NCBI RefSeq assembly: GCF_004010195.1
Contig: NW_025214638.1
Location: 13,209-47,861 of the forward strand
Length of the DNA: 34,653 nt
Source of the DNA: Chiloscyllium plagiosum
Lineage: Eukaryota
Direction of reading: 5' to 3'
Part shown: one piece after another, positions 1 to 34,653 of the stretch
Layout of the letters: the number at the start of each line of letters is the position of its first letter
Position numbering within the stretch: the stretch's first letter is position 1
Program-made: the position numbers and the translations under genes
Notes under the pieces: model-generated
Databases searched by the model: none
Told to the model about the DNA's origin: nothing
The model's input: the letters and a program-made list of their open reading frames with translations, nothing else

Positions 1-377
1 GTTAAAAATCACACAACACCAGGTTATAGTCCAACAGGTTTAATTCGAAGCACACTAGCTTTCGGAGTGATTGTGGTGGGCTCGGTCGTAACACAGAATT
101 TATAGCAAAAATTTGCAGTGTGATGTAACTGAAATTATACATTGAAGAATTGATTGTCTGTTAAGCCTTTCATCTGTTAGAATACAGTGATAGTTTCACA
201 TTACACTGCAAATTTTTGCTATAAATTCTGTGTTACGATCGAGCCCTCCACAATCACCTGATGAAGGAGTGTCGCTCCGAAAGCTAGTGTGCTTCCAATT
301 AAACCTGTTGGACTATAACCTGGTGTTGTGTGATTTTTAACTTTGTACACCCCAGTCCAACACCAGCATCTCCGAAT
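1..377. mobile_element. Penelope-like family B pseudo-LTR, inverted (fold-back) arrangement
   Basis: 1-~125 is the reverse complement of ~200-341. The same sequence forms the 3' end of the RT/GIY-YIG element at 30149-34450. The + arm has a 3' extension at 342-377. Confidence 0.85.
255..289 (+). ncRNA. Minimal type I hammerhead ribozyme (family B, intact core)
   Basis: cac-CTGATGA-A-GGAG tgtcg CTCC-GAAA-GC-TA-gtg: full catalytic core, stem II, and 3-bp stem I (cac/gtg). Confidence 0.8.
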
Positions 378-8277: not shown

Positions 8278-8410
8278 AATCCACAACCACCTGATGCAGG
8301 AGCAGTGCTCCGAAACCTAGTGATTCCAATTAAGCCTGTTGGACTATAACTTGGCGTTGTGTGATTTTTAACTTTGTACACCCCAATCCAACACTGGCAT
8401 CTCCAAATCT
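8278..8410 (+). mobile_element. Penelope family B pLTR end with degenerate hammerhead
   Basis: Matches 248-377; core mutated to CTGATGC...GAAACCTA. Confidence 0.85.
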
Positions 8411-11660: not shown

Positions 11661-13305
11661 TTTTTTTCAAGGGTTGTAAGGTTGATGTGAACAAAACCTT
11701 CTAGTGCACAAACATTGACTTATCCAAAAACACAGATATTAACAATAGCATCTTAACTTTTGTTATACAATCACCAGGAAGCAAATGTGCATTCAAACCA
11801 GACCACAAATTTAACCTGTCCACAAGCTTCAGGGAATCAGCACTGAGTCAGTTTCTGTCTCTCTCTCGCTCTCTTACACACTCAGTTTCCTTTGAACACT
11901 TGTAGTTTGTAGTTATTAACATGAGCAGTATAACCTGCACTGAAATATAAATAGCTGTCTGAATTTACCCTGTATATTGTACTTATTGACATGAACAGGA
12001 TACCCTGCACTAAACAGGAAATAGCTCTCTGAGTTTATCCAGTTGTTTGTACTTATTGACAGAGTACTGTACCCTGCACTGTCCTGTAAAAACTGGAAAT
12101 AGCTGTCTGGGTTAACCCTGTAGTTTGTAGTTATTGACTTGATCAGTATAACCTGTACTAAAGTGGAAAAAGCTGTCTGAGTTAACCCTGTAGTTTGTAG
12201 TTATTAACATAGGCACTATAACCTGTACTGAACATTAAATAGCATTCTCAGTTTAAGCTGTAATTTATTGTTATTGACATGAGCAGTATATCCTGCACTG
12301 AAGTATAAATAGGTGCATGAATTTGCCTTGTAGTTTGGAGGTATTGACTTGATCTGTATAACTCACACCAAAGTGGAAAAAGCTGTCTGAGTTAACCCTG
12401 TAGTTTGTAGTTATTGACATGATCAGTATAACCTACATTGATCTGTAACTAGCTGTCTGATTTTATCCTGTAGTTTGTAGTTATTGACATGTGCAGTATA
12501 TCCTGCATTGAAATATAAATACCTGTCACATTTACGCTGTAGTGGGTATTTATTGACAAGAGCAGTATATCCTGCACTGAACTGTAAATAGCCCAAATGA
12601 GGTAAACCTATAGTCTGTAATTAATAACATGAGTAGTATATCTTGCACTGAGTCTACTTTGTAGCTTGTAGTTATTAAAATAAATGGTATACCCTGTTCT
12701 GAACTGTAAATAGCTGCCTGATTTACCTTTAATCTGTAGGTATTGACATGAGCAGTCTACTTTGCACTGAATTGCAAATATCTGAGTTTACCTTGTTGTT
12801 TTGTAGTTATTGACATGAGCAGCATACCCTGCACTGAATTGCAAATATCTTTCTCAGTTTACCCAGTACTTTGTAGTTCTTGACATGAGCTGTATAACCT
12901 GTGATGAACTGTAAATAGCTGTCTATTTCACCCTACAGTTTGACAAGTACAGTATACCCTGCACTGAATTGCAAATACCTCTGTGAGGTTATCCTGTGGT
13001 TTATAGTTATTGCCATGAACAGTTTAACCTGCACATAATTGTAAGCAGATGTCTGAGTTTACACTGTAATTATTAGTTATTGACATGAGAGTTTACCTTG
13101 CACTGAACAGTCAGTAGCTTTCTAAGTTTATCCTGCAGTTTGTAGGTATTGTCATGAGCAGGATACCCTGCACTGAACTGTAAATAGCTCTCTGAGGTTA
13201 CTCTGCAGTTTGCAGTTATTGACATGAGCAGTATATCCTGTACTGAACTGTAAATAGCTATCTGAGTTTAACCTGTAGTTTGTAGTTATTGTCATGAGTA
13301 GAATA

Positions 13306-13587
13306 GCTGAAAATGTGTTGCTGGAAAAGCACAGCAGATCAGGCAGCATCCAGGGAACAGGCGAATCGACGTTTCGGGCATAAGCCCTTCTTCAGGAATG
13401 AGGAAAGTTTGTCCAGCAGGCTAGTCCCTCCTCCCTACCTTTTATCTTAGCCTGCTGGACAAACTTTCCTCATTCCTGAAGAAGGGCTTATGCCCGAAAC
13501 GTCGATTCCCCTGTTCCCTGGATGCTGCCTGACCTGCTGCGCTTTTCCAGCAACACATTTTCAGCATCTGCAGACCTCACTTTCTCC
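13306..13587. mobile_element. Non-coding Penelope family A inverted pLTR mini-element with two intact hammerheads
   Basis: Arms 13306-13423 and 13448-13565; hammerheads at 13364-13399 (-) and 13472-13507 (+); 14-bp TSD TCATGAGTAGAATA (13292-13305, 13588-13601). Confidence 0.9.
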
Positions 13588-15757
13588 TCATGAGTAGAAT
13601 AACCAGGACTGAACTGTAAATAGCTTTCTGAGATTACCCTGTAGTTTGTAGTTATTGACATGATCAGTATAACCTGCACTGAATGGTAAATCAATTTCTG
13701 GGTTTACCCTGCAGTTTGTAATTATTGACATGAACAGTCTACCCTGCACTGAACAGTGATAGCTTGCTGTGTTTACCTTGTAGTTTGTAGTTATTGGTAC
13801 AAGCAGTATAACCCACATTGAACTGTAAATACCTGTAACGTTTACCTTGCAGTTTGTTGTATTTGACATGATCAGTATACTCTGCACTGAAGTGTAAATA
13901 GCTGTCTGAGATTTAGTTGTAGTTTGTAGATATTGACATTAGCAGGATGCACTGCATAGTCCTGTAAATAGCTGTTTGGGTGTCCCTGTAGATTGTAATT
14001 ATTGCCATGAGCAGTACAACCTGCACTGAATTGCAAATAACTGACTGAGATTACCCGGTAGTTTGTAATTATTGACATAAGCAGTATAACCAGCATTGAA
14101 CTGTAAATATCTGTCAGGTTCACCCCACAGTTTGTAGTATTTGATCAGTATAGTCTGCCCTGAAGCGTAAATATCTGTTTGAGTTTTACTTGTAGTTTTT
14201 AGATATTAACATGAGTAGAATACAATGCACTGAACTGTAAATAGATGTCTGGGATAATCCTGTAATTTGTAGTTATTGACGTAAGCAGTTTAACCTGCAC
14301 TGAGCTGCAAATAGATGTCCGGGTTTACCCTGTAGTTTGTAGTTATTGACATGAGCAGTCTACACTGCACTGAACTGTAAATATCTGTCTGTGTTTACCT
14401 TGTAATTTGTAGTTATTGACATCAGCAGTATTCCTTGAACTGAACGGTGAATATCTTTCTGAGTTTACCCAGTACTTTATAGTTATTGACATGAGGACTT
14501 TCACCAGCACTGAATTGTAAATAGCTGTCTGAATTTACCCTGTAGTTTGTAGTTATTGACGTGAGCAATATAAACTGCGCTGAACTGTAACTATAACTGT
14601 AGATTACCCTGTACTTTGTAGTTATTGACATTACCCTGCACTGAACTGTAAATACCTCACTGAGGTAACTGTGAAGTTTGTAGTTATGGACATGAGCAGT
14701 TTAACCTGTTCTTAAATGTAAATAGATATCTGAGTTTACTATGTAATTGTTAGTTATTGACATGAGCAGTATATCCTGCACTGAACTGTAAATAGCTATC
14801 TGAGTTTACCGTGTAATTGTTGTTATTAACAAGAGCAGTGTAAACTTGCAGTGAACTGTAACTGGCTTTCTGTGTTTACCCTGTAGATTGTAGTTATTGA
14901 CATGAGCAGTATAACCTGCATTGAACTATAATTAGCTTTCTCAGTACACGCTGTAATTTGTAGCTATTGTCATGAGCAGAATAACCAACACTGAAATGTA
15001 AATAGCTTTCTGAGATTACCCTGTAGTTTGAAATTATTGACATGAGCAGTATATCCTGCACTGAACTGTAAATCACTGTCTGTGTTTATCCTGTCATTTG
15101 TCGTTATTATGATGAGCAGTATAACCTGCACTGAAGTGTAAATAGCTCTCTGAGTCTACCCTGTAGTTTGTCATTATTAACATGAACAGTATACCCTGCA
15201 CTGAAATGTAAATAGCTCTCTGAGTTTACCCTGTAGTTTGTCATTATTAACATGAACAGTATACCCTGCACTAAACGGAAAATAGCTGTCCGGGTTTACT
15301 CGCTTGTAGTTATTGACATGATCAGTATACCTGCACTGAAGAGTAATTGGCTGACCTTTGCTTGCCGTTTGTAGTTATTGACATGAGCAGTATACCGTGT
15401 ACTGAACTGTAAATAGCAGTCTGAGTTTACCCTGTAATTTGTAGTTATTGACATGAGCAGTAGAACCCACACTGAACTTTTAGTAACTGACTGAGAATTC
15501 TCTGTGATTTGTAGTTATTAGCATGAGCAGTATAACCTGCACTCAACTGTAAATAGCTCTCTGGATTTAGCCTGTAGTTTGTCATTATTTACATGAACAG
15601 CATGCCCTGCACTGAACTGAAAATATCTGTCTGAATTTACCCAGTAGTTTGCAGTTATTGACATGAGCAGTATACCTTGCACTGAGGAATAAATAGCTTT
15701 CTATGTTTAACCTGAAGTTTGTAGTTATTGACGTGAACATGCACTGAACTCCAAATA

Positions 15758-16482
15758 AAGAAGAACAAATAACAAAGAAAATTTAAGGCCCAGGAACAGG
15801 CCCCTCAGCCCTCCAAGCCTGAGCCAATCCAAATCTACTATCTAAACCTATCGCCCAATTCCTAAGCATCTGTATCCCTCTGATCCCCACCTACTCTGCA
15901 TCTGTCCAGTTGCATCTTAAGTGAATTTACCATGCCTTCCTCTACTACCTCTGCTTGCATCGCGGTTCAGGCTCATATCGCCCTCTGTGTAAAGTACTTG
16001 CCGCGTGTATCCCCCCTAAACTTATCACCTCTCACCTTGAAAGCGTGAATCCTTCAACCTGGGAAAATGCTTATCTCTATATACCCTGTCTATACCCTTC
16101 ATGATTTTGTAGGCCTCAATCAGGACCCCCTCAATCTCCTTTCTTCTAAAGAAAACAAACCTAACCAACTCAACCTCTCTTCATATCTAACACCTTTAAC
16201 ACCAGGCAACATCCTTGTAAACTTCCTCTTCACCCTCTCCAATGTGTCCACATCCTTATGGTAATGTGGCGACCAGAACTGTACACAGTATTCTAAATGT
16301 GGTTGAATCAATATTGTGTATAATTTTAACATGACCTACCAGCTCTTTCACTCAATACCCTGTCAGATGAAGGGGAGCATACCATATGCCTTCCTGACCA
16401 CCCTATCCACCTCTGTAGCAAACAATGGACCTGAACTCCCAGATCTCTCTGCTCATCAACTTTTCCCAAGTCTCTTCTATTT
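15758..16482 (-). mobile_element. CR1-like LINE 3' fragment inserted in the satellite
   Basis: LYTILIQPHLEYCVQFWSPHY..ERVKRKFTRMLPG; 3' UTR toward 15760. Confidence 0.9.
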
Positions 16483-19292
16483 AACTGTCTGAGAATTCTC
16501 TGTAATTTGCAGTTGTTGGTGTGAGCAGTATGTACTGCATTGAACTTAAAATAATTCCCTGAGGTTACCCTGTAGTTTGTCGTTATTTACTTGAGCAGGA
16601 TACCTTGCATTGAACTGTACATAGCTGTCTGAGATTACCCTGTAATTATTAGTTATTGACATGTGCAGTACACTCTGCACTGAAATGTAAACAGCTGTCT
16701 GAGTTTACACTGAAGTTTGTAGTTATTGACATGAGCAGTAGAACCAGCATTGAACTGTAAATTGATGTCTGATATTACCCTGTAGTTTGTAGTTATTGAC
16801 ATGAGCAGTATGCCCTGCACTGAACTGTAATTAGCTGTTTGATATTACCCTTTAGTTTGTAGTTATTAATATGAGCAGTATGACCCACACTGAACTGTAA
16901 ATAGCTGTCTGAGTTTACCCTGTATTTTGTAGTTATTGACATGAACGGTATAACCTGCTGTGAACTGTAAATAGCTGTCAAGTTTACTCTGTAGTTTGTA
17001 GCAATTGATATGAGCAGTATACTCTGCACTGAAGCGTAAATAGCTGTCTGAGTTTTACTTGTAATTTGTAGACATTGACATGAGCGGTCTACTCTGCACT
17101 GAACTTTAAATAGCTGACTGAGTTTTCCATATAGTTTGTGGTTATTGACATGTGCAATATCACTTGCACTGAACTGTAAATAGCTGTCTGAGTTTACCCT
17201 GTAGTTTGTAGTTATTGACATGGGCCGTATAACCTGCATTGAATGATAAAAGGCTTTCTGACTTTATGCTTTAATTTGTAGTTATTAACATGAGCTGTAT
17301 AACCTGCACTAAACTGTAAATATCTCCCAGCATCTACCCTGTAGTTTGTCATTATTAACATGAGCAATATAATCTGCACTGAACGGTAAATAACTATCTA
17401 AGTTTACCCTGTAGTTTGTAATTTTGACATGAGCAGTACAACTGGCACATGAACTGTAAATAGCTGTCTGAGTTTGCCCTGAAGTTTGTAGTTATTGACA
17501 TGAGCAATATACCCTGCACTGAACTGTAATTAGCTGTCTGATATTACCCTTTAGTTTGTAGTTATTAACATGAGCAGTATGACCCACACTGAACTGTAAA
17601 TAGCTGTCTGAGTTTGCCCTGAAGTTTGTAGTTATTGACATGAGCAGTATACCCTGCACTGAACTGTAATTAGCTGTCTGATATTCCCCTTTAGTTTGTA
17701 GTTATTAACATGAGCAGTATGACCCACACTGAACTGTAAATAGCTGTCTGAGTTTACGCTGTAGTTTGTATTTATTGACATGAGCGGGATAACCTGCACT
17801 GAACTGTAAATTACTGCCTAAGTTTATCTTGTAGTTTGTAGTTACTGAATTGAACTCTATAACCTGCACTGAACTGTAAATAGGTCTCTGAGTTTGCCTT
17901 GTAAGTTTGTAGTTATGAACTTGAGCAGTATATCCTGCACTGAAGGGTAAATGACTCTCTGAGGTAACCTTGTGCTTTATAATTATTAACATGAGTAGTA
18001 TACTCTGCAATGAACTGTAAATAGCTATCTGTGTTTACCCTGCAGTTTGTAGATATTATCCTGAGCAGTATAATCTGCATTGAACTCTAAATAGCTGTCA
18101 TGTTTACCCTGTAATTTGTAGTGAGCAGTATACTTTGCACTGAAATGTAAATAGCGGTGTTTTACTTGCGGTTTGTAGTTCCTGACAGGAGCAGTACACC
18201 CTGCAGTGAACTGTAAATAGTTGTCTGAATTTATCTGTAGTTTGTAGTTATTGAAATGAGCAGAATATCCTGCACGTAAGTGGAAATAGCTTTCTGGATT
18301 TACCCTGTAATTTGTAGTTATTGACATGATCAATATAACCAGCACTAAACTGTAATAACTTTCTGAGGTTACCCTGTCATTTGTAGTTATTAACATAAGC
18401 TGTATAACCCGCACTGAACTTTAAATAACTGTCTGAGTTTACCCTGTAGCTTGTAGTTATTGACATGAGCAGTATATCCTGCACTGAACTGTAAATACAT
18501 GTCTGGGTTTATCTTGTTGTTTGTAGTTATGAATATGTGTACTGAATTGTAAATAGCTCTCTGAATTTATCCTATAGTTTCTAGTTATTGACATGATCAG
18601 CATAACCCGCACTAAACTGTAAATAGCTTTGTGAGATTACCCTGTCATTTGTAGTTATTAACATGAGCTGTATAACCCGCACTGAACTTTAAATAGCTGT
18701 CTGAGTTTACCATGTAGTTTGTAGTTGTTGACATGAGCAGTATACCCTGCACTGAAATATAAATAAGTGTCTGAGCTTACCCTGTCATTTGTAGTTGTTG
18801 ACATGGTAAAACCTGCAGCAAACTGAAAGTACTGTGTTTACCTTGTAGTTTGTAGTTATTAACATGAGTATTTTCACCTGCACTGAACTGTAAATAGCTC
18901 GCTGAGTTTACCCTGTAGTTTGTGGTTTTTGACATGAGTAATATACCCTGAACTGAACTCTAAATTCCTGTCTGAATTTACTCTGTCATTTGTAGTTATT
19001 GACATGATCTTTATACTCTGCACTGAACTGTAAATAGCTGTCTGAGTTTACCCTATAATTTGCAGTTATTGGTTTGAGCAGTATAACCTGCATGGAAGTG
19101 TAACTTGCTGTCTGACTTTACCTTGTCATGAGTGGTTATTAACATGAGCAGTATATCCTGAGCTGAACTGAAAATAGCTCTCTGGTGTAAATCTGAACTT
19201 TGTCGTTATTAATATGAGCAGAATACACTGTACTGAAGTGTAAATACCCCTCTGAGTTTATCTTGCAGTTTGTAGTTATTAACATGAGCAGT

Positions 19293-20445
19293 GCTGAAAA
19301 TGTGTTGCTGGAAAAGCGCAGCAGGTCAGGCAGCATCCAGGGAACAGGAGAATCGACGTTTCGGGCATAAGCCCTTCTTCAGGAATGAGGAAAGTTTGTC
19401 CAGCAGGCTAAGATAAAAGGTAGGGAGGAGGGACTTGGGGGAGGGGCGTCGGAAATGTGATAGGTGGAAAGAGGTCAAGGTGAGGGTGATAGGTCAGACG
19501 GGGGTGGGGGCGGAGAGGTCGGGAAGAAGATTGCAGGTTAGGAAGGCGGTGCTGAGTTCGATGGATTTGACTGANNNNNNNNNNNNNNNNNNNNNNNNNN
19601 NNNNNNNNNNNNNNNNNNNNNNNNNNNNNNNNNNNNNNNNNNNNNNNNNNNNNNNNNNNNNNNNNNNNNNNNNNNNNNNNNNNNNNNNNNNNNNNNNNNN
19701 NNNNNNNNNNNNNNNNNNNNNNNNNNNNNNNNNNNNNNNNNNNNNNNNNNNNNNNNNNNNNNNNNNNNNNNNNNNNNNNNNNNNNNNNNNNNNNNNNNNN
19801 NNNGCAGGGGAAGGTGCGGGGAGTGGAGGTTGGGTTGGTGGGGGGTGTGGATCTGACGAGGGAGTCACGGAGGGAGTGGTCTTTACGGAATGCTGATAGG
19901 GGAGGGGAGGGAAATATATCCTTGGTGGTGGGGTCCGTTTGGAGGTGGCGGAAATGACGGCGGATGATGCGCTGTACATGGAGATTGGTGGGGTGGTAGG
20001 TGTGGACCAGTGGGGTTCTGTCCTGGTGGCGGTTGGAGGGGCGGGGCTCAAGGGCGGAGGAGCGGGAAGTGGAAACGGTGGAGGGCATCGTCGACACGTC
20101 GGGGGGAAATTGCGGTCCTTGAAGAAGGAGGCCATCTGGGTTGTACGTTTTTGGAACTGGTCCTCCTGGGAGCAGATGCAGCGGAGTCGAAGGAATTGGG
20201 AGAATGGGATGGCGTTTTTACAGGGGGCAGGGTGGGAGGAGGTGTAGTCCAGGTAGCTGTGGGAGTCGGTCGGTTTGTAGTAGATGTCCGTGTTGATTCG
20301 GTCGTCTGAGATAGAAATAGAAAGATCGAGGAAGGAGAGGGAGGAATCTGAGACTGTCCAAGTGAATTTGAGGTCGGGGTGGAAGGTGTTGGTGAAGTGG
20401 ATGAACTGTTCAACCTCCTCATGTGAGCACGAGGCGGCGCCGTAT
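19293..20445 (-). mobile_element. Penelope family A, 5'-truncated (RT thumb to pLTR; N-gap 19575-19803)
   Basis: FLDLSI..TDIYYKPTDSHSYLDYTSSHP..KNAIPFSQFLRLR.ICS; intact hammerhead at 19351-19386; flanking ATGAGCAGT duplication. Confidence 0.9.
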
Positions 20446-23400
20446 ATGAGCAGCATATGAGCAGTATATGCTACATTGAACTGTAAATAGCTGTCTGAGT
20501 TTACCCTGTATTTTGTTGTCATTGACATGTGCAGTATATACTGCACTAAACTGCAAATAGCTGTCAGTGTTTACTCTGTAGTTTATCATTATTGACATGC
20601 GCTGTGTACCCTCCCCAAACTGTAAATAACTCTCAGATTTTACTCTATAGTTCGTAGTTATAATCATGAGCGGTACTGCACTGAACTATAAGTAGCTATC
20701 TGAGTTTACCTTGTAGTTTGTAGTCATTGACATCAATCATATAGTGAACTGTAAATATTTGTCTGAGTTTACTCTGTAGTATGTACTTGCTAACATGAGC
20801 AGTGTATCCTGCATTGAACTCTAACTAGCTGTCTGAGTTTACCTTGTAGTTTGTAGTCATTGTTATGAGCAGTACGAGCACCGAACTCTAAATAGCTGTT
20901 TGAGTTTACCCTGTAGTTTGTAACTATTGACTTGAGCAGTATTACCTGCACTGAAATATAAATAGCTGTCTGAATTTACCCTGTAGTTTCTAGTTATTGA
21001 CATGAGCAGTATATGCTGCACTGAACTGTAAATTTCTGTCTGACTCATAGAGTCATAGAGTTATACAGCACGGAAACAGACCCTTCGGTCCAATTCGTCC
21101 ATACCAACCAGATATCCCAACCCAATCTAGTCCCACGCCCAACAGCTGGCCCATATCCCTCGAAACCCTTCCTCTTCATATACCCATCCAAATGTCTTTT
21201 AATTGTTCCAATTGTACTCACCTCCACCAGTTCCTCTAGCAGCCCATTCCACACATGCACCACTCTCTGCATTAAAGTTTTTCCCCTTAGGACTCTTATA
21301 TCTTTCCCCTCTCACTCCTCCACAAGCCCAGGGAAAACACCTTGTCCATTTATCCTATCCATACTTCTCATGATTTTATAAACCTCGATAAGGTCACCCC
21401 TCAGCCAACGACACTCCAGGGAAAGCAGTCCTAACCTATTCAACCTCTTCCTATAGCTCATGTCCTTCAAACCTGGCAACTTCCTTGTAAATCTTTTCTG
21501 AACCCTTTCAAGTTTCACAACATCCTTCCAATAGGAAGGAGACCAGAATTGCACGCAATATTCCAAAATGACTGAACCAATGTTCTGTGTGGCTGCAACA
21601 TGATCTCCCAACTTCTGTAGTCAATACTCTGACCAACAGAGGAAAGCAAGCCAAACACCTTCTTCACTATTCTATCTATCTGCGACTCTACTTTCAAGGA
21701 GCTATGAAAATGCACTCCAAGCTCCCTCTGTTCAGCAACACTCCCTAGGATCTTACCATTAAGTATATACGTCCTGCTCTGATTTGCTTTCCCAAAATGC
21801 AACACCTCCCATATTACTAATTTAAACTCCATCTGCTACTCCTCAGTCCATTGACTCATCTGATCAAGATCCCATTGTAATGCAAGGTAACCTTCTTCGT
21901 TATCACTATGCCTCCAATTTTAGTGTCATCAGCAAACTTACTAACTATACCTCATCAGTTCACATCCAAATACTTTGTACAAATGACGAAGAGGAGTGGA
22001 CCCAGCACCAACCCTTGTGGCACTCCATTGGTCACTGGCCTCCAATCTGAAAAACAACCCTCCACCGTCACTGCCTGTCTTCTACCTTTGAGCCAGTTCT
22101 GTATCCAAGTGGTGAGTTCTCCCTGTATTCCGTGAGATCTAACCTTACTTACCAGTCTCCCATGGGCATTTTTGTTGAACGCTTTACTGAAGTCCATATA
22201 GATCACGTGTACCACTCTGCCCTCATCAATCCTCTTTGTAACTTCTTCAAAAAGCTCAATCAAATTTGTGAGGCATGATTTCCCACGCACAAAGCCATGT
22301 TGATTATCCCTAATCAGTCCATGCCTTTCCAAATACATGTACATCCTCTCCCTCAGGATTCCCTCCAACAACTTACCCACCACCAAAGTCAGGCTCACTG
22401 GTCTACAGTTCCTTGGCTTCTCCTTACCACATTTCTTAAATAGTGGCACCACGTTTTCCAGCCTCCAGTCTTCCGGCACCTCACCTGTGACTATCGATGA
22501 TACAAATATCTCAGCAAAGGGCCCAGCAATCACTTCCTTCGCTTTCCACAGAATTATAGGATACACGTGATCAGGTTCTGGGGATTTATCCCCTTTTATG
22601 CGTTTCAAGACACCCATCACTTCCTCCTCTGTAATATGGACATTTTTCAAGATGTCACCATCTGTTTCCCTACATTCTATATCTTACACGTCCTTTTCCA
22701 AAGTAAGTACTAATGCAAAGTACTCATTTAGTATTTCTCTCATTTTCTGCAGCTCCACACAAAGGCCACTTTGCTGATCTTTGAAGGTCCCTATTCTCTC
22801 CCTTGTTACCTTTTTGTCCTTAATGTATTTGTAAAGTGCTCCCCAATGACACCTCAGTCACCTGCCCTGCCTTATTTCCCAAGAGGTCAGGTTTTACACC
22901 TTCTCTATTAGGTTCATCCACAAACTGAATCAGAAAATTTTCAAATACGCACTTAAACTCGTCTCCTTTTAAACCCTCAATGCTATGGCAGTCTCAATCA
23001 ATGTTTGGAAAGCTAAAATCCCCTTCCATAACCACACTCATCTGACTATTAGGGGATCTATAATGCAATCCCAATAAGGTGATATTCCCTTTCTTATTTC
23101 TCAGTTCCACCCAAATAACTTCCCTGGATTATTTTCAGGAATATCCTCCCTCAGTACAGCTGTAATGCTACCCTTGTCAAAAACGCCACTCCCCCTCCTC
23201 TCTTGCTTCCCTTTCTGTCCTTCCTGCAATATTTGTATCCTGGAGCAATACTCTGCCAGTCCTGTCCACTACTGAACCATGTTTCTGTAATTGCTGTGAA
23301 GTCACAGTCCCATTTTCCTAACCGTGCCCTGAGTTCATCTGCCTTCCCTGTTAGGCCTCTTGCATTGAAATAAATGGAGTTTAATTTATCAGACCTGCCT

Positions 23401-26327: not shown

Positions 26328-27057
26328 TGTGTGGTGAATTTGTACTTGCAGAGTTACATTGCACTTTGCTCAAAAACTGCATACATTCATGTAGAACTCT
26401 GAGCTCAAAAACTGCATGAATTTATGTAAAACTCTGTTATCTCACTTTTTAGATTAGAATCAATCTAAACATCAGGTCATAGACAGAGAACACAGGGGGC
26501 TAACACCTTCAACATATTCTGGATCAGTGGTGCTGAAAGAGCACAGCAATCCAGGCAGCATCCGACGAGCAGCAAAATCGATGTTTCAGGCAAAAGCCCT
26601 TCATCAGGAATAAAGCTTTATTCCTGATGAAGGGCTTTTGCCCGAAACGTCGATTTTGCTGCTCGTCGGATGCTGCCTGAATTGCTGTGCTCTTCCAGCA
26701 CCACTGATCCAGAATCTGGTTTCCAGCATCTGCAGTCATTGTTTTTACCTTCAACATATTGTCTAGCTATCACCATTGTTAAAGCTAACCCGAGAATGCA
26801 ACTTTTAAAAAAAGGGTTTCGTGATTTACACATGAAAGAAGTGAAACTATCACTGTACTCTAACAGATGAAAGGCTTAACAGACAATCAATTTTTCAATG
26901 TATAATTTCAGTTACATCACACTGCAAATTTTTGCTATAAGTTCTGTGTTACAATCGAGCCCTCCACAATCACCTGATGAAGGATCGTCGCTCCAAAAGC
27001 TAGTGTGCTTCCAATTAAACCTGTTGGACAATAACCTGGTATTGTGTCATTTTTAAC
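26328..27057 (+). mobile_element. Penelope family B 3' UTR/pLTR insertion
   Basis: Perfect 12-bp TSD TATGTTAGGATA (26316-26327, 27058-27069); degenerate hammerhead at 26971-27005. Confidence 0.9.
26519..26746. mobile_element. Palindromic double-hammerhead A' mini-element nested in family B
   Basis: Spacer-less inverted repeat 26517-26714 centred on AAAGCTTT; 14-bp TSD ACCTTCAACATATT (26505-26518, 26747-26760); intact + hammerhead at 26620-26655. Confidence 0.9.
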
Positions 27058-27219
27058 TATGTTAGGATAAGATGTGAAGGCTCAGTTAGGGCAGGTGAAG
27101 AGTTATAAGTTAGCCAGGAAAGACCTAAAGACAGAGCTAAGACAAGCGAGGAAGGGACATGAGAATTTGTTGGTGGATAGGATCAAGGATAATCCTAAAG
27201 ATTACTACAGGTACATCGG

Positions 27220-27868
27220 TGTAGGAATAGATTTACTAATCCACGATAGGCCCACAAAAGCAAATTGGCCAAATTGTACCAGAACACCCAGACTTCCCGA
27301 GCAGCTCACAAACTGGATCTGACAGCATGCAGACTGTAAGCTCCCATGGACATGACAGAGCACCACAGATATGTCAAAGCCCTAAGGGCAGTTTCACAAC
27401 CCAACAATACCAAAGCTACACAAAAAAAAGGACAGACAGACAGGCACCAGCAAAGGACATGCTCCAGGAACAGGACAATGGAAGCACCTCACCACTCCAG
27501 AAGAGACTTTAACACCTACCTGTGGAAATGAATGGAGCCATGATACATGATGTTGCATTGTGTGAAGGAACAGGGCATTCATCCGATTAAACTGTTTTCC
27601 AGTCAGCACACTTGTAACTAAATTACTCCATTTCCACAAACATTGTAGTTTCCCATTTCTTAATCAGTGTCATTGTGCAGCATTATTATAAAACTGGTCT
27701 CAACCTCAGCCCTGGGAGAAGACATCTGATCTGTCTGTGCAGACTATCAGTTCTGTGTCAGCTCGTCTGTTTTCTCATCCAGCCATATCGCTTGCAATAA
27801 ACTGTTTGTCAATTTTACTCCGAGCTGTGTTTTGTGATCTCGAACCTATTGGGCAAATTTCTCCGACA
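27220..27868 (+). mobile_element. ERV 5' LTR
   Basis: TGTAGGA...TCCGACA termini, TATAAAA at 27687, AATAAA at 27796, followed by TGGCG at 27872 (PBS-like) and GGTAAG splice-donor-like site at ~27907. Confidence 0.75.
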
Positions 27869-28860
27869 GTTTGGCGTTAGACCCCTTTTCTTTTATTTCA
27901 CAACAGGGTAAGCGAACCTCTCATTTTAAATTTAACCCAATTGGTACCTGGTGGCTAGCCTTGCCCAGCGGGTCAGACCAGAAAGGCTGAACGAAGGCAG
28001 AAGTTGGCCACAATTCTGATCTGCAGCGAATTTGGCTTCAGCTACTGCAATTTGGAATGTGAGTAGTGACCCTTGCCTAGGGAGGTTGGCATTGGACTCT
28101 TCAATTGCTGCCAGCTCAGGCAGTCTGGTAAGCGGCTAAATTAATTTTCAAATTTAACTAATTGGCAGCCGACTGCTCCTGCAATTTGGAACGTGAGTAG
28201 TGACTCTGGCCTGTGGAGGTGAACACTTGGCTCCTAAATTGTTAAATGAATTTTAAGCTGCCACGTCTGGGCCTGAGGAGGTGGTCTGATGGGAAAGTAA
28301 GTTAATTGGCAGCTAGTAATTCGGTACTACACAGAGTGGACTGGACTTGTGGAAGTCGTCACCTGTGCTACATTAATTACCTGAAATTTTACAACAAACT
28401 TAATTTGGCCCACGCGTGATTCACCTTGAGTCAGAACTGCTGTCATGAACCTGTTCTAGCCAGGAGAAAGATGGTCGGGCAGAGAAAGTTAGTCACAATA
28501 CGTGGAGAGACCGTTCGTCAAATTCTCACTTTGCTACCGATGCATCTATCGAATTCAATCGAACAAAATTGACTTGGGCCTAGCTGTGTTGTCTTGTCCT
28601 GTGGTGTTTCAGTGTTTGCTTTGGGTGCGTCAGCTTGTTCTGTGCTTACTGAGTACTGCTTCGTAAATTTCAGGTGTCCGTTTTGGTTGTGTTTGTTCAG
28701 CGCTGAAGTGTTTGTTTACTTTGTGGTCAGCGATTACACGCTTGAGTAACTTTTATTGCCTAGCCTGTCAATCACTGGCTGTGTTCTGTTAGCTCTCTGT
28801 TTATTTTCCCTCGAAACCTAATACAGCACTTAGAAATCATCCCAAGCGGTCCAGGACGCC

Positions 28861-30148
28861 ATGGGGTCACGGACATCCATCATCTGCCGGGAGATGCCAG
28901 CTATGGGAGCTGGGCAACCTCAACCACGTGGTGAGAACGGCCCAGGGCCGAAAATGAATAAGAGTACGCTGTAAAGGCATCGTAAATACGTTGACTGCAA
29001 GAACAAGGTAGGAGATGCTCTTGTTACACCTGGGCCACCGGCAGACAATGTGCTAAAATACACAGGGGATAGCTGTTACGTTATCCCCTTCACAAGGGAC
29101 CTTTAAACCTGGTCCCATATGAACTGGCCATATTTGGGGGGGTGGGGGGGTTCTTCAAAATTGATAAAATTGATTACTGGACCATGGCTGTGGGAAATAG
29201 AACCCACTCACTTCAATAATTTCAGTCCAAGACAAGATCTGAAGCAGCAGTATCGTTTATTACACTCTTGCAAGAGTGGTGTCTACAAGGTAGGCACACC
29301 GAGTTTAACGAGTACACAACTCTTATACAATTCATTTCTCCTTTTGTCCTCCCATTGCTCCTCCCTTGTTTACATCTCCCACTACTCTAAACCCGGCATC
29401 CATTATTCTTGTTTATCTCTTGCCTGTTCAGCCTTGTGCATGACAAAATGCAGGTTTTGCTTGGCTGTTTCACCACATCCCTCGGTGGTCTATTGTTAGC
29501 ATATATCCTCCTTCACTGCCATCTGCTTCCTTGCTTGCTAAAGCAACATTTCCTCCAATTTTTTGCCCACACTAGGCCTTACGACCTCTTGATTGTGGAT
29601 ATTTTTGTTTTGTTTTGCATAAGCATGAAACAGATGCTTATAAGTCTTTGTACAAGCATATATTGCTGAACCTACCCCCCCCCCCACCCCCCCACCTTCA
29701 TGATTCAGCCTTGAGAATTTTGCAGACAACAACATTTTTAATTGCTCCTCACAATAGCCATTACGGGGTGGGGGGTTGGGGGGAGGCACGAGGATACCTC
29801 ATGGGACACTATCTACATGTTACAATGTCTTGCAAAATTTCAGGACATTGCCAAACACCACCAGTCCCTGAAGTTAAAGACTGCAGCAATAAAACCCCAA
29901 TGGCAGAGACCCCTACCACCCCAGGCACAGCCCCACTGCCCTACACCCCGCAATACCCTAAACTTCCCTACCGGCCCCAGAACCAGACCCCGCTGCTAAA
30001 TGAAGTGGCTGCCTTTGTTACCATGCAGCCCACGAGAAGCTCGCAGCAGAATACAATAGCCGCTGAGCATTCTGAGTCATTGCCACTGCCCCACTCAGAC
30101 AATAAAGTCAGGCTCACATGCAGCACGACCGCTGCCTTGAAAAACCAG
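28861..30148 (+). pseudogene. gag: ERV gag N-terminal remnant (MA / late-domain region), interrupted by an antisense LTR
   Basis: GCCATGG start giving MGSRTS (myristoylation pattern); WP..G..FKIDKI; Pro-rich GTAPLPYTPQYPKL. Confidence 0.6.
29189..29565 (-). mobile_element. Second-family LTR (29189-29548) with PPT-like tract, antisense inside gag
   Basis: Minus strand: CAAAAAATTGGAGGAAA, then TG start, TATAAG (~29325), AATAAA (29256-29261), ending CCCACA. Confidence 0.55.
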
Positions 30149-30614
30149 GTTAAAAATCACACAACACCAGGTCATAGTCCAACAGGTTTAATTGGAAGCA
30201 CGCTAGCTTTCGGAGTGTCACTCCTTCATTAGGTGATAGTGGAGGGCTCAATCCTAACACGCAGAATTTATAGCAAAAATTTACAGTGTGATGTAACTGA
30301 AATTATACATTGAAATATTGATTGTCTGTTAAGTCTTTCGTCTGTTTGAATTCAATGATAGTTTCACTTCTTTCATGTGTAAATCACAAAACCTTTTTTT
30401 AAAAGGTTGCATTCTCAGGTTAGCTGTTAACAATGGTGATAGCCAGACAATATGTTGAAGGTGTCAGCCCCCTGTGTTCTCTGTCTATGCCATGATGTTT
30501 AGATTGATACTAATCTAAAAAGTGAGATAACGGAGTTTTACATGAATTCATGCAGTTTTTGAGCAAAGTACAATGTAACCCTGCAAGTACAAATTCACCC
30601 CACAAAATATATAT

Positions 30615-30815
30615 GCGTATGTGGGTCTTTGTCTGTCTGTGAATGTGTGTATCTGTCTGGTTGGTGAGTGTGAGAAAGTGTTTGTGTAATGAATATAGAG
30701 TGTCTTAATTCTGTGAGGTGGTGCATGTGTGAGTGTGCATGCCTGTAAGGGTGTGTGAGTATCTGTGTGTGTGTGTGAGTGCTTGTGTGTAGGAGTGTCT
30801 GTGTGTGTGTATAGT
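30615..30815. repeat. Degenerate (GT)n low-complexity tract in family B 3' UTR
   Basis: Interrupted TG dinucleotide runs. Confidence 0.8.
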
Positions 30816-31155
30816 GTAATGGTGGTCACCTGTAATGTGACATGAAACCAAGGTCCCGGTTGAGGCCCTCCCTATGGGTACCAAAATTAGCTATCAGCCT
30901 CTGCTCGGCCACTTTTCACTGCTGCCTGTCCCGAAGTCCGCCTTGGACGGTGGTCACCCAAAGGGCCGAGGTTGAATGTCATGGACCACTGAAGTGTTCC
31001 CCAACTGGGAGGGAACACTCCTGTCTGTTGATTGATGTGCAGTGCCCATTCATCCGTTGTTGTACCCTTTATTCAGTTTCCCCAATGTACCATGCCTCAG
31101 GGCATCCTTGCCTGCAACATATAAGATAGACAACATTGGCTGAGTCACATGAGTA

Positions 31156-33324
31156 GCTTCGAGGAGAAAGTGAGGTTTCTCCATCACCTCACCACGCCCA
31201 ACGTCACCCCCACGCCAATCTCGGTCCTAACCCCCACGCCCAACCCCGCCCACACTCCCAGCTCCAGCCCCACACCAGGTCCTAGCTCCCAGCCCCTGCC
31301 GTGTTTTCACCAACCCTCCAGAACTACCCCTCTCTGAGGATGAAAGATCAGTCCTCAGCAGAGGCCTCACCTTCATTCCCCTACGGTCTGGGATTAACGA
31401 GTTCAACATGCGGCGTGACATCGAACAATTCTTCCGCCGCCTTCGCCTCCTTCTTCAACCAAGACTCTCGCCCACCCTCTGACGACCCCTTCTCCCACCT
31501 CCAACACACCCCATCCACCTGGACACCCTGTGCTGGCCTCTTACCTGCCCTCAATCTCTTCATAGCCAACTGCCGCCGCAACATTAACCGCCTCAACTTC
31601 TCCACCCCTCTCACCCACTCCAACCTCTCACCCTCGGAACGTGCAGCCCTCCACTCTCTCCGTACCAACCCCAAACTCACTATCAAACCGGCAGACAAGG
31701 GAGGCGCGGTAGTAGTTTGGCGCACCGACCTTTACACCGCTGAGGCTAAATGCCAGTTCGCGGACACCTCCTCCTACTGCCCCCTTGACCTTGACCTTGA
31801 CCCCACCTCCCACCACCAAACCATCATCTCCCAGACCGTCCATAACCTCATCACCTCAGGGGATCTCCTATCCACCGCCTCCAACCTCATAGTCCCACAG
31901 CCCCACACCACCCATTTCTACCTCCTGCCCAAAATCCACAAACCTGACAGCCCCGGCAGANNNNNNNNNNNNNNNNNNNNNNNNNNNNNNNNNNNNNNNN
32001 NNNNNNNNNNNNNNNNNNNNNNNNNNNNNNNNNNNNNNNNNNNNNNNNNNNNNNNNNNNNNNNNNNNNNNNNNNNNNNNNNNNNNNNNNNNNNNNNNNNN
32101 NNNNNNNNNNNNNNNNNNNNNNNNNNNNNNNNNNNNNNNNNNNNNNNNNNNNNNNNNNNNNNNNNNNNNNNNNNNNNNNNNNNNNNNNNNNNNNNNNNNN
32201 NNNNNNNNNNNNNNNNNNNNNNNNNNNNNNNNNNNNNNNNNNNNNNNNNNNNNNNNNNNNNNNNNNNNNNNNNNNNNNNNNNNNNNNNNNNNNNNNNNNN
32301 NNNNNNNNNNNNNNNNNNNNNNNNNNNNNNNNNNNNNNNNNNNNNNNNNNNNNNNNNNNNNNNNNNNNNNNNNNNNNNNNNNNNNNNNNNNNNNNNNNNN
32401 NNNNNNNNNNNNNNNNNNNNNNNNNNNNNNNNNNNNNNNNNNNNNNNNNNNNNNNNNNNNNNNNNNNNNNNNNNNNNNNNNNNNNNNNNNNNNNNNNNNN
32501 NNNNNNNNNNNNNNNNNNNNNNNNNNNNNNNNNNNNNNNNNNNNNNNNNNNNNNNNNNNNNNNNNNNNNNNNNNNNNNNNNNNNNNNNNNNNNNNNNNNN
32601 NNNNNNNNNNNNNNNNNNNNNNNNGCAAGAAATGCAAAACTTGCGCCCACATCTCCCCCCTTACCTCCCTCCAAGGCCCCAAGGGATCCTTCCATATCCG
32701 CCACAAATTCACCTGCACCTCCACACACATCATTTATTGCATCCGCTGCACCCGATGTGGCCTCCTCTATATTGGGGAGACAGGCCACCTACTTGCGGAA
32801 CATTTCAGAGAACACCTCTGGGACACCTGGACCAACCAACCCAACCATCCCGTGGCTCAACACTTCAACTCCCCCTCCCACTCCACCAAGGACATGCAGG
32901 TCTTTGGACTCCATCATCGCCAGACCATAGCAACATGACGGTTGGAGGAAGAATGTCTCATATTCTGCCTCGGAACCCTCCAACCACAAGGGACGAGCTC
33001 AGATTTCTCCAGTTTCCTCATTTCCCCTCCCCCCACCTTGTCTCAGTCAAATCCCTCAAACTCAGCACCGCCTTCCTAACCTGCAATCTTCTTCCTGACC
33101 TCTCCGTCCCCACCCCACTGTGGCCTATCACCCTCACTTTGACCTCCTTCCACCTACCGCATTTCCAATGCCCCTCCCCCAAGTCCCTCCTCCCTATCTT
33201 TTATCTTAGCCTGCTGGACACACTTTCCTCATTCCTGAAGAAGGGCTTATGTCGGAAACGTCGATTCTCCTGTTCCTAGGATGCTGCCTGACCTGCTGCG
33301 CTTTTCCAGCAACACATTTTCAGC
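31156..33324 (+). mobile_element. Penelope-like family A nested in family B (N-gap 31961-32624)
   Basis: IKPADKGGAVVV, FYLLPKIHK, CKTC, IIYCIRC..LYIGETG; pLTR hammerhead at 33231-33266; 11-bp TSD TCACATGAGTA (31145-31155, 33325-33335). Confidence 0.92.
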
Positions 33325-34465
33325 TCACATGAGTACCTGCCATGTACAAGGTGGGAGGTGTCCCCACGCATAATGGTGGTATCTATGTCCACATTCTGAC
33401 ACGTCTTGCAGCGCCTACTGTGACAGCGTTGTATGGAAATGTCCCGAGAGCCGGGCAGCTTGCTACGAACAATGATCTGCTTGAGGTTTGGTGGTTGTTT
33501 AAAGGCAAATAGTGGAGGTGTGGGGAAGGTCTTGGTGAGGTGCTCATCCTCATTGATAATGTGTTGCAGGTCAAGAAGAACATGACGTAGTTTTTCATCT
33601 CCTGGGAAATACTGAACACCTGTCAGTTGCAACACGTGTCGTCATTACAATTCCTTGCTGTGGCACGTTGGAACTGGTGGTCGATGAGTTGGGCATTGTA
33701 CCCCGTCCTTTTGAGGGATCCCTGAGTACTTCCAGGTGTCCATCACGTTCCTCCTTATCTGAGCAGATCCGGTGTACGGGTAGGGCTTGTCCATCGGGGA
33801 TGGCTGTTTTAATATGTTTTGGGCGGAAACTGGAGCAGTATAGCATTGTGAGGATGTCTGTAGGTTTGCGGTAGAGTGTGGTGCTGAGGTGTCCATCCTT
33901 GATGGAGATGCATGTATCCCAGAATGAGACAGATAGTCGATAGTAATCCATGGTGAGTTTGATGGTGGGATGAAACTTGTTGATATCACTGTGCAGTTTT
34001 ATCAGTGACTCCTCGCCATAAGTCCAGAGGAAGAAAATGTCATCAATGTACCTGGTGTATAATGTTGGTTGGAGATACCGCATAGAGAAGAAGTCTTGTT
34101 TGAACCTGTGCATAAAAATGTTGGCATATTGGGGTGCAAATTTGGTCCCCATGGCTGTTTTATGTGTCTGGATGAACAACTGGTTGTCAAAGGTGAAGAC
34201 ATGATCAAGGATAAAGCGGATGAGTTGTAGGATTATGTTTGGAGATTGGCTGTTGTTGGTGTTGAGTACTTCGGCTGTTGTTGTGATGCCATCACTGTGG
34301 GGGATGCTGGTGTAGAGTGCAGAAACGTCCATTGTGATGAGGAATGTTCCCGGTTCGACTGATCCATGGGTGCTAAGTTTCTGTAAGAAATCTGTAGTTT
34401 CGTGACAGAAGCTGGGGATCCCCTGTACAATAGGTTTCAAGAATCCAAATCCTAAAAAAACCAGG

Positions 34466-34627
34466 ACACTGGATGCCAGTTTCCATGCATTTTGCTTGGA
34501 CCTACTCCCCTTGATAAGCCCTGGACCCATGCAGGATGCCCCAGACCCATTGCAAAGTCCACTCGCATTTTATAATTGGCTGCTACAAATTTCCACCATT
34601 TACAACTGTCTTCCACAAGATGTGCGA
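34466..34627 (+). pseudogene. gag: ERV gag capsid N-terminal remnant (continuation after the Penelope insertion)
   Basis: KPWT.. and APDPLQSPLAFYNWLLQISTIYNCLPQDVR resemble the start of gamma-type p30; the TSD links it to 30148. Confidence 0.6.
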
Positions 34628-34653
34628 TAGGGTTAGGGTTAGGGTTAGGGTTA
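34628..34653 (+). repeat. Vertebrate telomeric repeat (TTAGGG)n at window end
   Basis: TAGGG-TTAGGG-TTAGGG-TTAGGG-TTA, perfect, G-strand running toward the end. Confidence 0.9.

What the first reader, a model, noticed from the sequence alone, without database searches (positions are those of the whole stretch)
34466..34653. Retroviral capsid sequence truncated directly by telomere repeats
Seen: gag-like coding sequence runs to ..GATGTGCGA and switches with no degenerate transition into perfect TAGGG(TTAGGG)n, in chromosome-end orientation, at the end of the window. Known: abrupt junctions of this kind typify de novo telomere addition at breaks. Inference: a healed chromosome break (terminal deletion or microchromosome end; programmed breakage is speculative) inside an ERV. 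Only ~4 repeats are visible, so an interstitial tract is possible.
Basis: partly seen in the sequence, partly recalled or inferred. Interest (0 to 1): 0.7.

Follow-up and report, generated by a model that had tools for sequence, protein, structure and literature searches.

The report
Telomere-repeat scar in dead shark retrovirus
A broken, likely retroviral relic in shark-like DNA stops abruptly at about four perfect telomere repeats where the assembled sequence ends; this is likely an ordinary scar of telomerase acting at a DNA break, and whether it is a true chromosome end remains untested.

Summary
Bases 34628-34653 are TAGGG(TTAGGG)3TTA, perfect, G-strand outward, with no variant repeats before them. 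The preceding 172 bases match a bamboo-shark protein whose nearest look-alikes are Gag p30/p24 clusters; this support is indirect, as Pfam and PDB gave nothing. New anatomy: the fragment is the far side of a larger dead provirus (LTR-like 27220-27868, leader, 5' gag 29897-30149). Its gag is split by two nested Penelope retroelements, each with a target-site duplication, and by a frameshift. An abrupt junction is shared by healed ends and by short interstitial telomeric insertions, which number hundreds per mammalian genome and often sit in repeats. Base 1 of the window also falls exactly on a repeat terminus, so this is probably a small scaffold broken at repeats at both ends. No reads could test the junction. 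Best reading: one-off telomerase addition at a break, now a chromosome end (0.45) or rejoined internally (0.35); artefact 0.12. Nothing supports programmed breakage. A new case of a known kind; low interest.

The parts
34628..34653 (+). Perfect telomeric tract TAGGG(TTAGGG)3TTA, G-rich strand pointing off the end of the sequence; true length unknown
34456..34627 (+). Gag remnant (likely start of capsid), frameshifted near 34529, cut off by the telomeric tract
   Evidence: tblastn to P0004 residues 90-151; Atlas Gag_p30/p24 look-alikes of P0004; related contigs in 4 of 4 runs laid
34456..34465 (+). Right copy of the 10-nt target-site duplication of the outer Penelope insertion
   Evidence: identical to 30140-30149; 26 of 5000 random window pairs give a match this long
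33325..34442 (-). 5'-truncated part of the outer Penelope-like element (reverse transcriptase remnant)
   Evidence: RVT_1 E 2.1e-7; related contigs leave the stretch at 34440-34442 in 4 of 4 runs; reading frame resumes at 31155
31156..33324 (+). Inner Penelope-like element nested in the outer one; holds a 664-N assembly gap (31961-32624); 11-nt target-site duplication at 31145-31155 and 33325-33335
   Evidence: GIY-YIG E 0.0052, below the curated cut-off; duplication, 9 of 5000 random pairs; gap
30150..31155 (-). 3' part of the outer Penelope-like element with its terminal repeat
29897..30149 (+). 5' part of the same gag, ending at the left target-site duplication (30140-30149)
   Evidence: P0004 residues 7-94, 38% identity, E 3e-9 within the window
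27869..29896 (+). Primer-binding-site-like start (TGGCG at 27872) and long proviral leader
   Evidence: read by eye; the motif is recalled, not matched to a tRNA by any search
27220..27868 (+). LTR-like segment, TG...CA ends, AATAAA at 27796, starting where an older LINE fragment stops
   Evidence: read by eye; LINE similarity ends at 27213-27229; no second LTR in the window
1..20 (+). Window start falls exactly on the terminus of a Penelope terminal repeat: likely a scaffold end
   Evidence: same terminus at 5 other places; three of them diverge upstream at exactly this base; about 1.5e-4 for this family by chance

Best explanation
The 26-base perfect TTAGGG tract abuts a frameshifted, insertion-split remnant that is likely retroviral gag, and it was likely added once by telomerase at an accidental double-strand break, which probably became a new chromosome end. 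Order of events: a provirus inserted into an older LINE (inferred), a Penelope element then landed in its gag and a second Penelope landed in the first (shown by the two target-site duplications), and at some time a break 172 bases further on received telomeric repeats (inferred). If terminal, the rest of the provirus and everything distal was lost, which is tolerable only near an existing end. The ERV is a bystander: the break hit it because such DNA fills the region.
For: Perfect repeats starting abruptly, no variant-repeat zone, G strand outward, at the last base. Rest of gag, pol, env and the second LTR are absent from the window. Related gag copies exist in 4 of 4 runs laid, so the sequence is a dispersed family and not a subtelomeric unit. 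The scaffold bridges two other gaps with Ns but not this end. Human healed terminal deletions show telomere joined directly to the breakpoint with 0-3 bp microhomology, often in repeats (PMC4427916, passages). FISH found no interstitial telomeric sites in three carpet sharks (PMC7648076, passages), so a long tract would be terminal. In cancer cell lines 46 of 51 outward-oriented short-read sites proved to be long telomeres (PMC11293586, passages), though that is a somatic, selected set. About 9 kb of 70-bp satellite nearby is compatible with a chromosome-end region (weak).
Against: Only 26 nt are seen. Short interstitial insertions give the same junction and are common in mammals. The other end of the window seems to stop at an ordinary repeat, so failure to extend says little. 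Outward orientation has a prior of one half. FISH misses short tracts (PMC8537989, Introduction). Window GC is 0.43 and I found no host gene or other mark that places it at an end. Microhomology at the junction could not be counted.
Confidence: 0.45

Rival explanations
1. Short interstitial telomeric sequence: telomerase added a few repeats at a break in the dead ERV, the ends were rejoined, and the assembly simply stops inside the tract. Same chemistry as the best explanation, no loss of distal DNA.
For: 229 human and 142 horse loci of at least four repeats (PMC7215372); 244 mouse and 250 rat loci, and 16 primate loci inserted within repetitive elements (PMC2246262); young loci are near perfect; such loci are reported in a catshark (PMC8537989). 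The window's left end also stops at a repeat, and what would follow the tract is multi-copy ERV sequence.
Against: A tract of a few dozen bases is normally spanned by reads or bridged by an N gap, as two other places in this scaffold are (inference). No count of such loci exists here for this genome, because no whole genome is held.
Confidence: 0.35
2. Assembly artefact: a chimeric read or a gap-closing step appended abundant telomeric sequence to a contig end.
For: Gapped, fragmentary scaffold; very short tract at the extreme end; none of the 24 listed runs holds more than 0.27 of the sampled words, so the locus has no independent confirmation.
Against: The junction is clean and the tract is error-free and outward-facing; assemblers usually need several reads to extend an end (general knowledge).
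Confidence: 0.12
3. The repeats were not made here by telomerase: they are the edge of a captured telomere or of another inserted element that carries TTAGGG units.
For: Telomere capture is a known route to stabilise breaks (PMC4427916; PMC11293586); the region is full of nested insertions.
Against: No other tandem TTAGGG or CCCTAA run accompanies any repeat in the window; no TERC-like RNA match in 33000-34653; capture usually brings variant repeats or subtelomeric sequence along (inference).
Confidence: 0.05
4. Programmed or recurrent chromosome breakage that uses this ERV family as a telomere-addition site.
For: Ratfishes are listed among animals with programmed DNA elimination (PMC9894435, passage).
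Against: One junction only; the provirus is decayed and split by later insertions; no conserved break motif seen; no similar note among this scan's findings (unchecked index).
Confidence: 0.03

Closest known systems
De novo telomere addition (chromosome healing, neotelomeres), e.g. human 18q terminal deletions (PMC4427916) and Cas9-induced neotelomeres (bioRxiv 10.1101/2022.10.31.514589)
   Same: Perfect TTAGGG joined directly to non-telomeric sequence, G strand outward, breakpoint inside a repeat.
   Different: Here the tract length, the loss of distal DNA and the microhomology are unknown; it sits in a reference assembly of a shark-like genome, not in a patient or cell line.
Short interstitial telomeric sequences (s-ITS) inserted at double-strand breaks (PMC2246262, PMC7215372, PMC8537989)
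   Same: At least four near-exact units, abrupt edge, located inside a transposable element.
   Different: The far flank, which defines an s-ITS, is not in the window; no TERC-derived piece was found on the visible side.
Endogenous retroviruses of cartilaginous fishes (CmiERVs, PMC4422223, abstract only); nearest protein P0004, named by its source a hypothetical protein of Chiloscyllium punctatum
   Same: LTR-like, leader and gag order; Gag p30/p24-like capsid region.
   Different: No pol or env is present, so the lineage cannot be assigned; the copy is split by two nested Penelope elements and a frameshift.

Membership tests
Healed chromosome end (neotelomere) | Perfect telomeric repeats joined directly to non-telomeric DNA, without variant-repeat zone | tested here: met
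Healed chromosome end (neotelomere) | G-rich strand runs 5' to 3' towards the end | tested here: met
   prior one half
Healed chromosome end (neotelomere) | Kilobase-long tract with no sequence beyond | not testable with these tools
   window ends after 26 nt; no genome held; the read tool skips the repeat
Healed chromosome end (neotelomere) | Distal DNA lost from the genome | not testable with these tools
   no whole genome
Healed chromosome end (neotelomere) | 0-4 nt microhomology to the telomerase template at the break | tested here: inconclusive
   related contigs cover up to 34627 but their continuations were not shown; also not discriminating, since s-ITS share it
Short interstitial telomeric sequence | [quoted passage not shown] | tested here: met
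   4.3 copies, 100% matches
Short interstitial telomeric sequence | Non-telomeric flank resumes beyond the tract; empty allele or orthologue exists | not testable with these tools
   window ends; no run holds the locus
TERC-ITS | Flank derived from telomerase RNA | tested here: not met
   visible flank is gag-like; no Rfam telomerase RNA match at E up to 5; far flank unseen
Endogenous retrovirus (gag/capsid) | Capsid homology | tested here: inconclusive
   Atlas features 0.94 to Gag_p30/p24 clusters, 9 of 10 best hits agree, structure rows TM 0.51-0.56 under the naming bar; no Pfam or PDB support
Endogenous retrovirus (gag/capsid) | LTR, primer-binding site and leader upstream of gag, same strand | tested here: inconclusive
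   TG...CA segment with AATAAA and a following TGGCG seen by eye; no second LTR to confirm
Endogenous retrovirus (gag/capsid) | pol and env, paired LTRs, target-site duplication | not testable with these tools
   would lie beyond the window end
Programmed chromosome breakage site | Junction present in soma, absent in germline, recurring among individuals | not testable with these tools
   no tissue-resolved reads

The most novel reading that the evidence does not exclude
Carpet-shark chromosome ends are routinely remade by breakage and fresh telomere addition inside transposable elements, possibly as a programmed germline-to-soma event like the DNA elimination reported for ratfish, and this junction is one such site.
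Probability: 0.04. Interest if true: 0.75.

Novelty: new member of a known kind. Interest (0 to 1): 0.22.

Why it matters
If terminal, it is a natural example of a vertebrate chromosome end made by healing, with a datable landmark: the missing 3' half of the provirus and the interrupted LINE tell what was lost, and it would anchor a small scaffold to a chromosome tip in a group where telomere-to-telomere assembly is still hard (bioRxiv 10.1101/2025.06.08.657570, passage). If interstitial, it is one more telomerase repair scar, of which mammals have hundreds. Neither changes what is known about mechanism. Only recurrence at many ends, or a germline-soma difference, would make it important.

Tried and rejected
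Whole-genome search: none held. Pfam, PDB and Atlas on the window's own 58- or 74-aa piece: nothing. Word-index protein searches: no longer relatives of the piece or of P0004, and only P0004 itself among 4 near-length candidates. Of 4 phmmer hits, P0001-P0003 are long repetitive proteins with unrelated domains and were dropped as chance; only P0004 was kept. Metagenome scan: 424 pattern matches, none confirmed. Rfam on 33000-34653: 2 matches, both far below gathering score, no telomerase RNA. Sequencing runs: 19 of 24 listed hold part of 33330-34627, none half, best 0.27, which fits related Penelope copies and not this locus. Laying 4 of those 24 runs on 34250-34653 gave zero depth on 34628-34653 in all 4, but the tool skips that repeat and drops loose ends there, so this is no evidence either way. 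The 324-codon minus-strand frame 33595-34569 reaches into the gag remnant, but related Penelope contigs leave at 34442, so the overlap is incidental. A structure prediction of P0004 was not available, so the capsid call lacks a fold search against solved structures. Paper searches: all six terms of 'chromosome end, telomere addition, truncated, retrotransposon, abrupt, vertebrate' in 0 papers; shark + ITS terms 11 papers; shark ERV terms 1 and 4 papers. None of the listings describes this junction, but the library lacks most subscription journals, and supplements (such as ITS locus tables of PMC8537989) were not read.

Full report
Observation. The window ends in TAGGG(TTAGGG)3TTA at 34628-34653. 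It is the only tandem telomeric run in the window, has 100% matches, and is expected by chance about once in 1e10 windows. The nine in-phase hexamers before the junction match the telomere unit at 0-3 of 6 letters and the nearest variant hexamer is about 490 bases upstream. The switch is therefore abrupt, and the G-rich strand points off the end.

Is it gag? The window's own piece gave no hit in Pfam, PDB or the ESM Atlas. A full phmmer scan returned 4 proteins; three are unrelated repetitive proteins and one, P0004, is a real relative, named by its source a hypothetical protein of Chiloscyllium punctatum. By tblastn, P0004 residues 90-115 lie on 34456-34533 and residues 121-151 on 34529-34621 in another frame; 0 of 200 shuffles scored as well. 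P0004 residues 85-225 have Gag_p30/Gag_p24 clusters as nearest look-alikes (0.94, 202 of 256 features, 9 of the 10 best named hits agree; structure rows under the naming bar), but no Pfam or retroviral PDB hit. So 'capsid-like gag remnant' is likely but rests on one indirect line plus the anatomy below.

P0004 residues 7-94 also match 29897-30163, so the gag begins 4.3 kb upstream and is split. The insert is bounded by a 10-nt direct repeat at 30140-30149 and 34456-34465 (26 of 5000 random pairs do as well). It is a minus-strand Penelope-like element (RVT_1 E 2.1e-7; related contigs leave the stretch at 34440-34442), itself interrupted by a plus-strand Penelope-like element at 31156-33324 with an 11-nt duplication (9 of 5000); the outer element's frame reads on across that point. 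Further upstream lie an LTR-like segment (27220-27868, TG...CA, AATAAA at 27796), a TGGCG at 27872 where a primer-binding site would start (recalled motif), and a long leader. The LTR-like segment starts where an older LINE fragment stops. No second LTR is in the window. The provirus is thus dead: split, frameshifted near 34529 and CpG-depleted (observed/expected 0.22-0.35 in LTR and gag). Related gag sequence occurs in contigs of 4 of 4 runs laid, at depths of about 2-760 against 2,000-130,000 for the Penelope part: a dispersed, modest-copy family.

What kind of record is this? The window holds two N gaps of 229 and 664. Its first base falls exactly on the terminus of a Penelope terminal repeat, a point at which three other copies diverge from one another; for this family alone that has a chance of about 1.5e-4, more if all repeat families are counted. 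I infer that the window is a whole small scaffold that stops at repeats at both ends. This matters: the stop at TTAGGG is what an assembler would do whether the tract is 40 bases or 10 kb (inference).

Read evidence. No whole genome is held. Of 24 listed runs none holds more than 0.27 of the sampled words of 33330-34627. Four were laid; the tool skips the repeat and drops the loose ends there. The junction therefore has neither support nor contradiction, and microhomology could not be counted.

Mechanism. Shown: the tract, the abrupt edge, the split gag, the order provirus, then outer, then inner Penelope. Inferred: the repeats were added by telomerase at a double-strand break. Two known outcomes give this same edge. 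In healing, the repeats grow into a telomere and distal DNA is lost; human 18q deletions show direct joins with 0-3 bp microhomology, often in repeats (PMC4427916, passages). In the other outcome the nascent repeats are end-joined and stay inside the chromosome (bioRxiv 10.1101/2022.10.31.514589, passage); such short interstitial tracts number 229 in human and 142 in horse (PMC7215372, passages), 244 in mouse and 250 in rat, with 16 primate cases inside repetitive elements (PMC2246262, passages), and occur in a catshark (PMC8537989, passages and Introduction). For a real end: the scaffold bridges two other gaps but not this one; short tracts are usually spanned by reads; FISH found no interstitial sites in three carpet sharks (PMC7648076, passages), so a long tract would be terminal; 46 of 51 outward short-read sites in cancer lines were long telomeres (PMC11293586, passages; a selected somatic set); natural ends tend to have variant repeats proximally (same paper), which are absent here; about 9 kb of satellite lies nearby, and simple repeats were examined as a feature of shark chromosome ends (bioRxiv 10.1101/2022.10.17.512540, passages; weak). 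Against: only 26 nt, FISH misses short tracts, the left end also stops at a plain repeat, and orientation is a coin toss. My weights, which are judgements and not computed: healed end 0.45, interstitial insertion 0.35, artefact 0.12, capture or another element 0.05, programmed breakage 0.03.

Comparison with what is known. It works like telomerase addition at a break. It meets the visible criteria of both a neotelomere and a short interstitial tract; the features that separate them could not be tested. It is not a TERC-flanked tract on the visible side. The ERV cannot be assigned to a lineage without pol; shark ERVs are known (PMC4422223, abstract). Programmed elimination is listed for ratfishes (PMC9894435, passage), but one junction in a decayed element gives it no support. 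My paper searches listed no description of this junction; they cover open-licence papers only.

Verdict. A real sequence feature, correctly seen, with a plausible but unproven reading. It is a new instance of a known kind of scar, and the ERV is most likely a bystander. Interest 0.22. One long read across the junction would settle it.

Noticed in passing
window 30140-34465: Clean three-layer nesting: provirus, outer Penelope-like element, inner Penelope-like element, each insertion with an exact 10- or 11-nt target-site duplication.
   Followed up: yes
window 11901-21043: About 9 kb of a diverged 70-bp satellite (68-75% matches) in several blocks, interrupted by Penelope-like pieces near 13306-13565 and 19293-20450.
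   Followed up: no
window 1-20: The window starts exactly at a Penelope terminal-repeat boundary, suggesting it is a whole small scaffold.
   Followed up: partly
window 26513-26718 and 13306-13565: Near-perfect palindromes of Penelope-like ends: 103-nt arms with no spacer (95%) and 118-nt arms with a 24-nt spacer (97%).
   Followed up: no
window 255-290 and related copies near 8290, 11580, 26970: Penelope terminal repeats carry a CTGATGA...GAAA core that resembles the minimal hammerhead ribozyme known from such elements (recalled; not tested here).
   Followed up: no
window 28041-28107 and 28175-28241: A 67-nt direct repeat (79% identity) inside the proviral leader.
   Followed up: no
P0004 (public protein, not in the window): Annotated as a hypothetical host protein of Chiloscyllium punctatum but probably a retroviral gag remnant.
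   Followed up: partly
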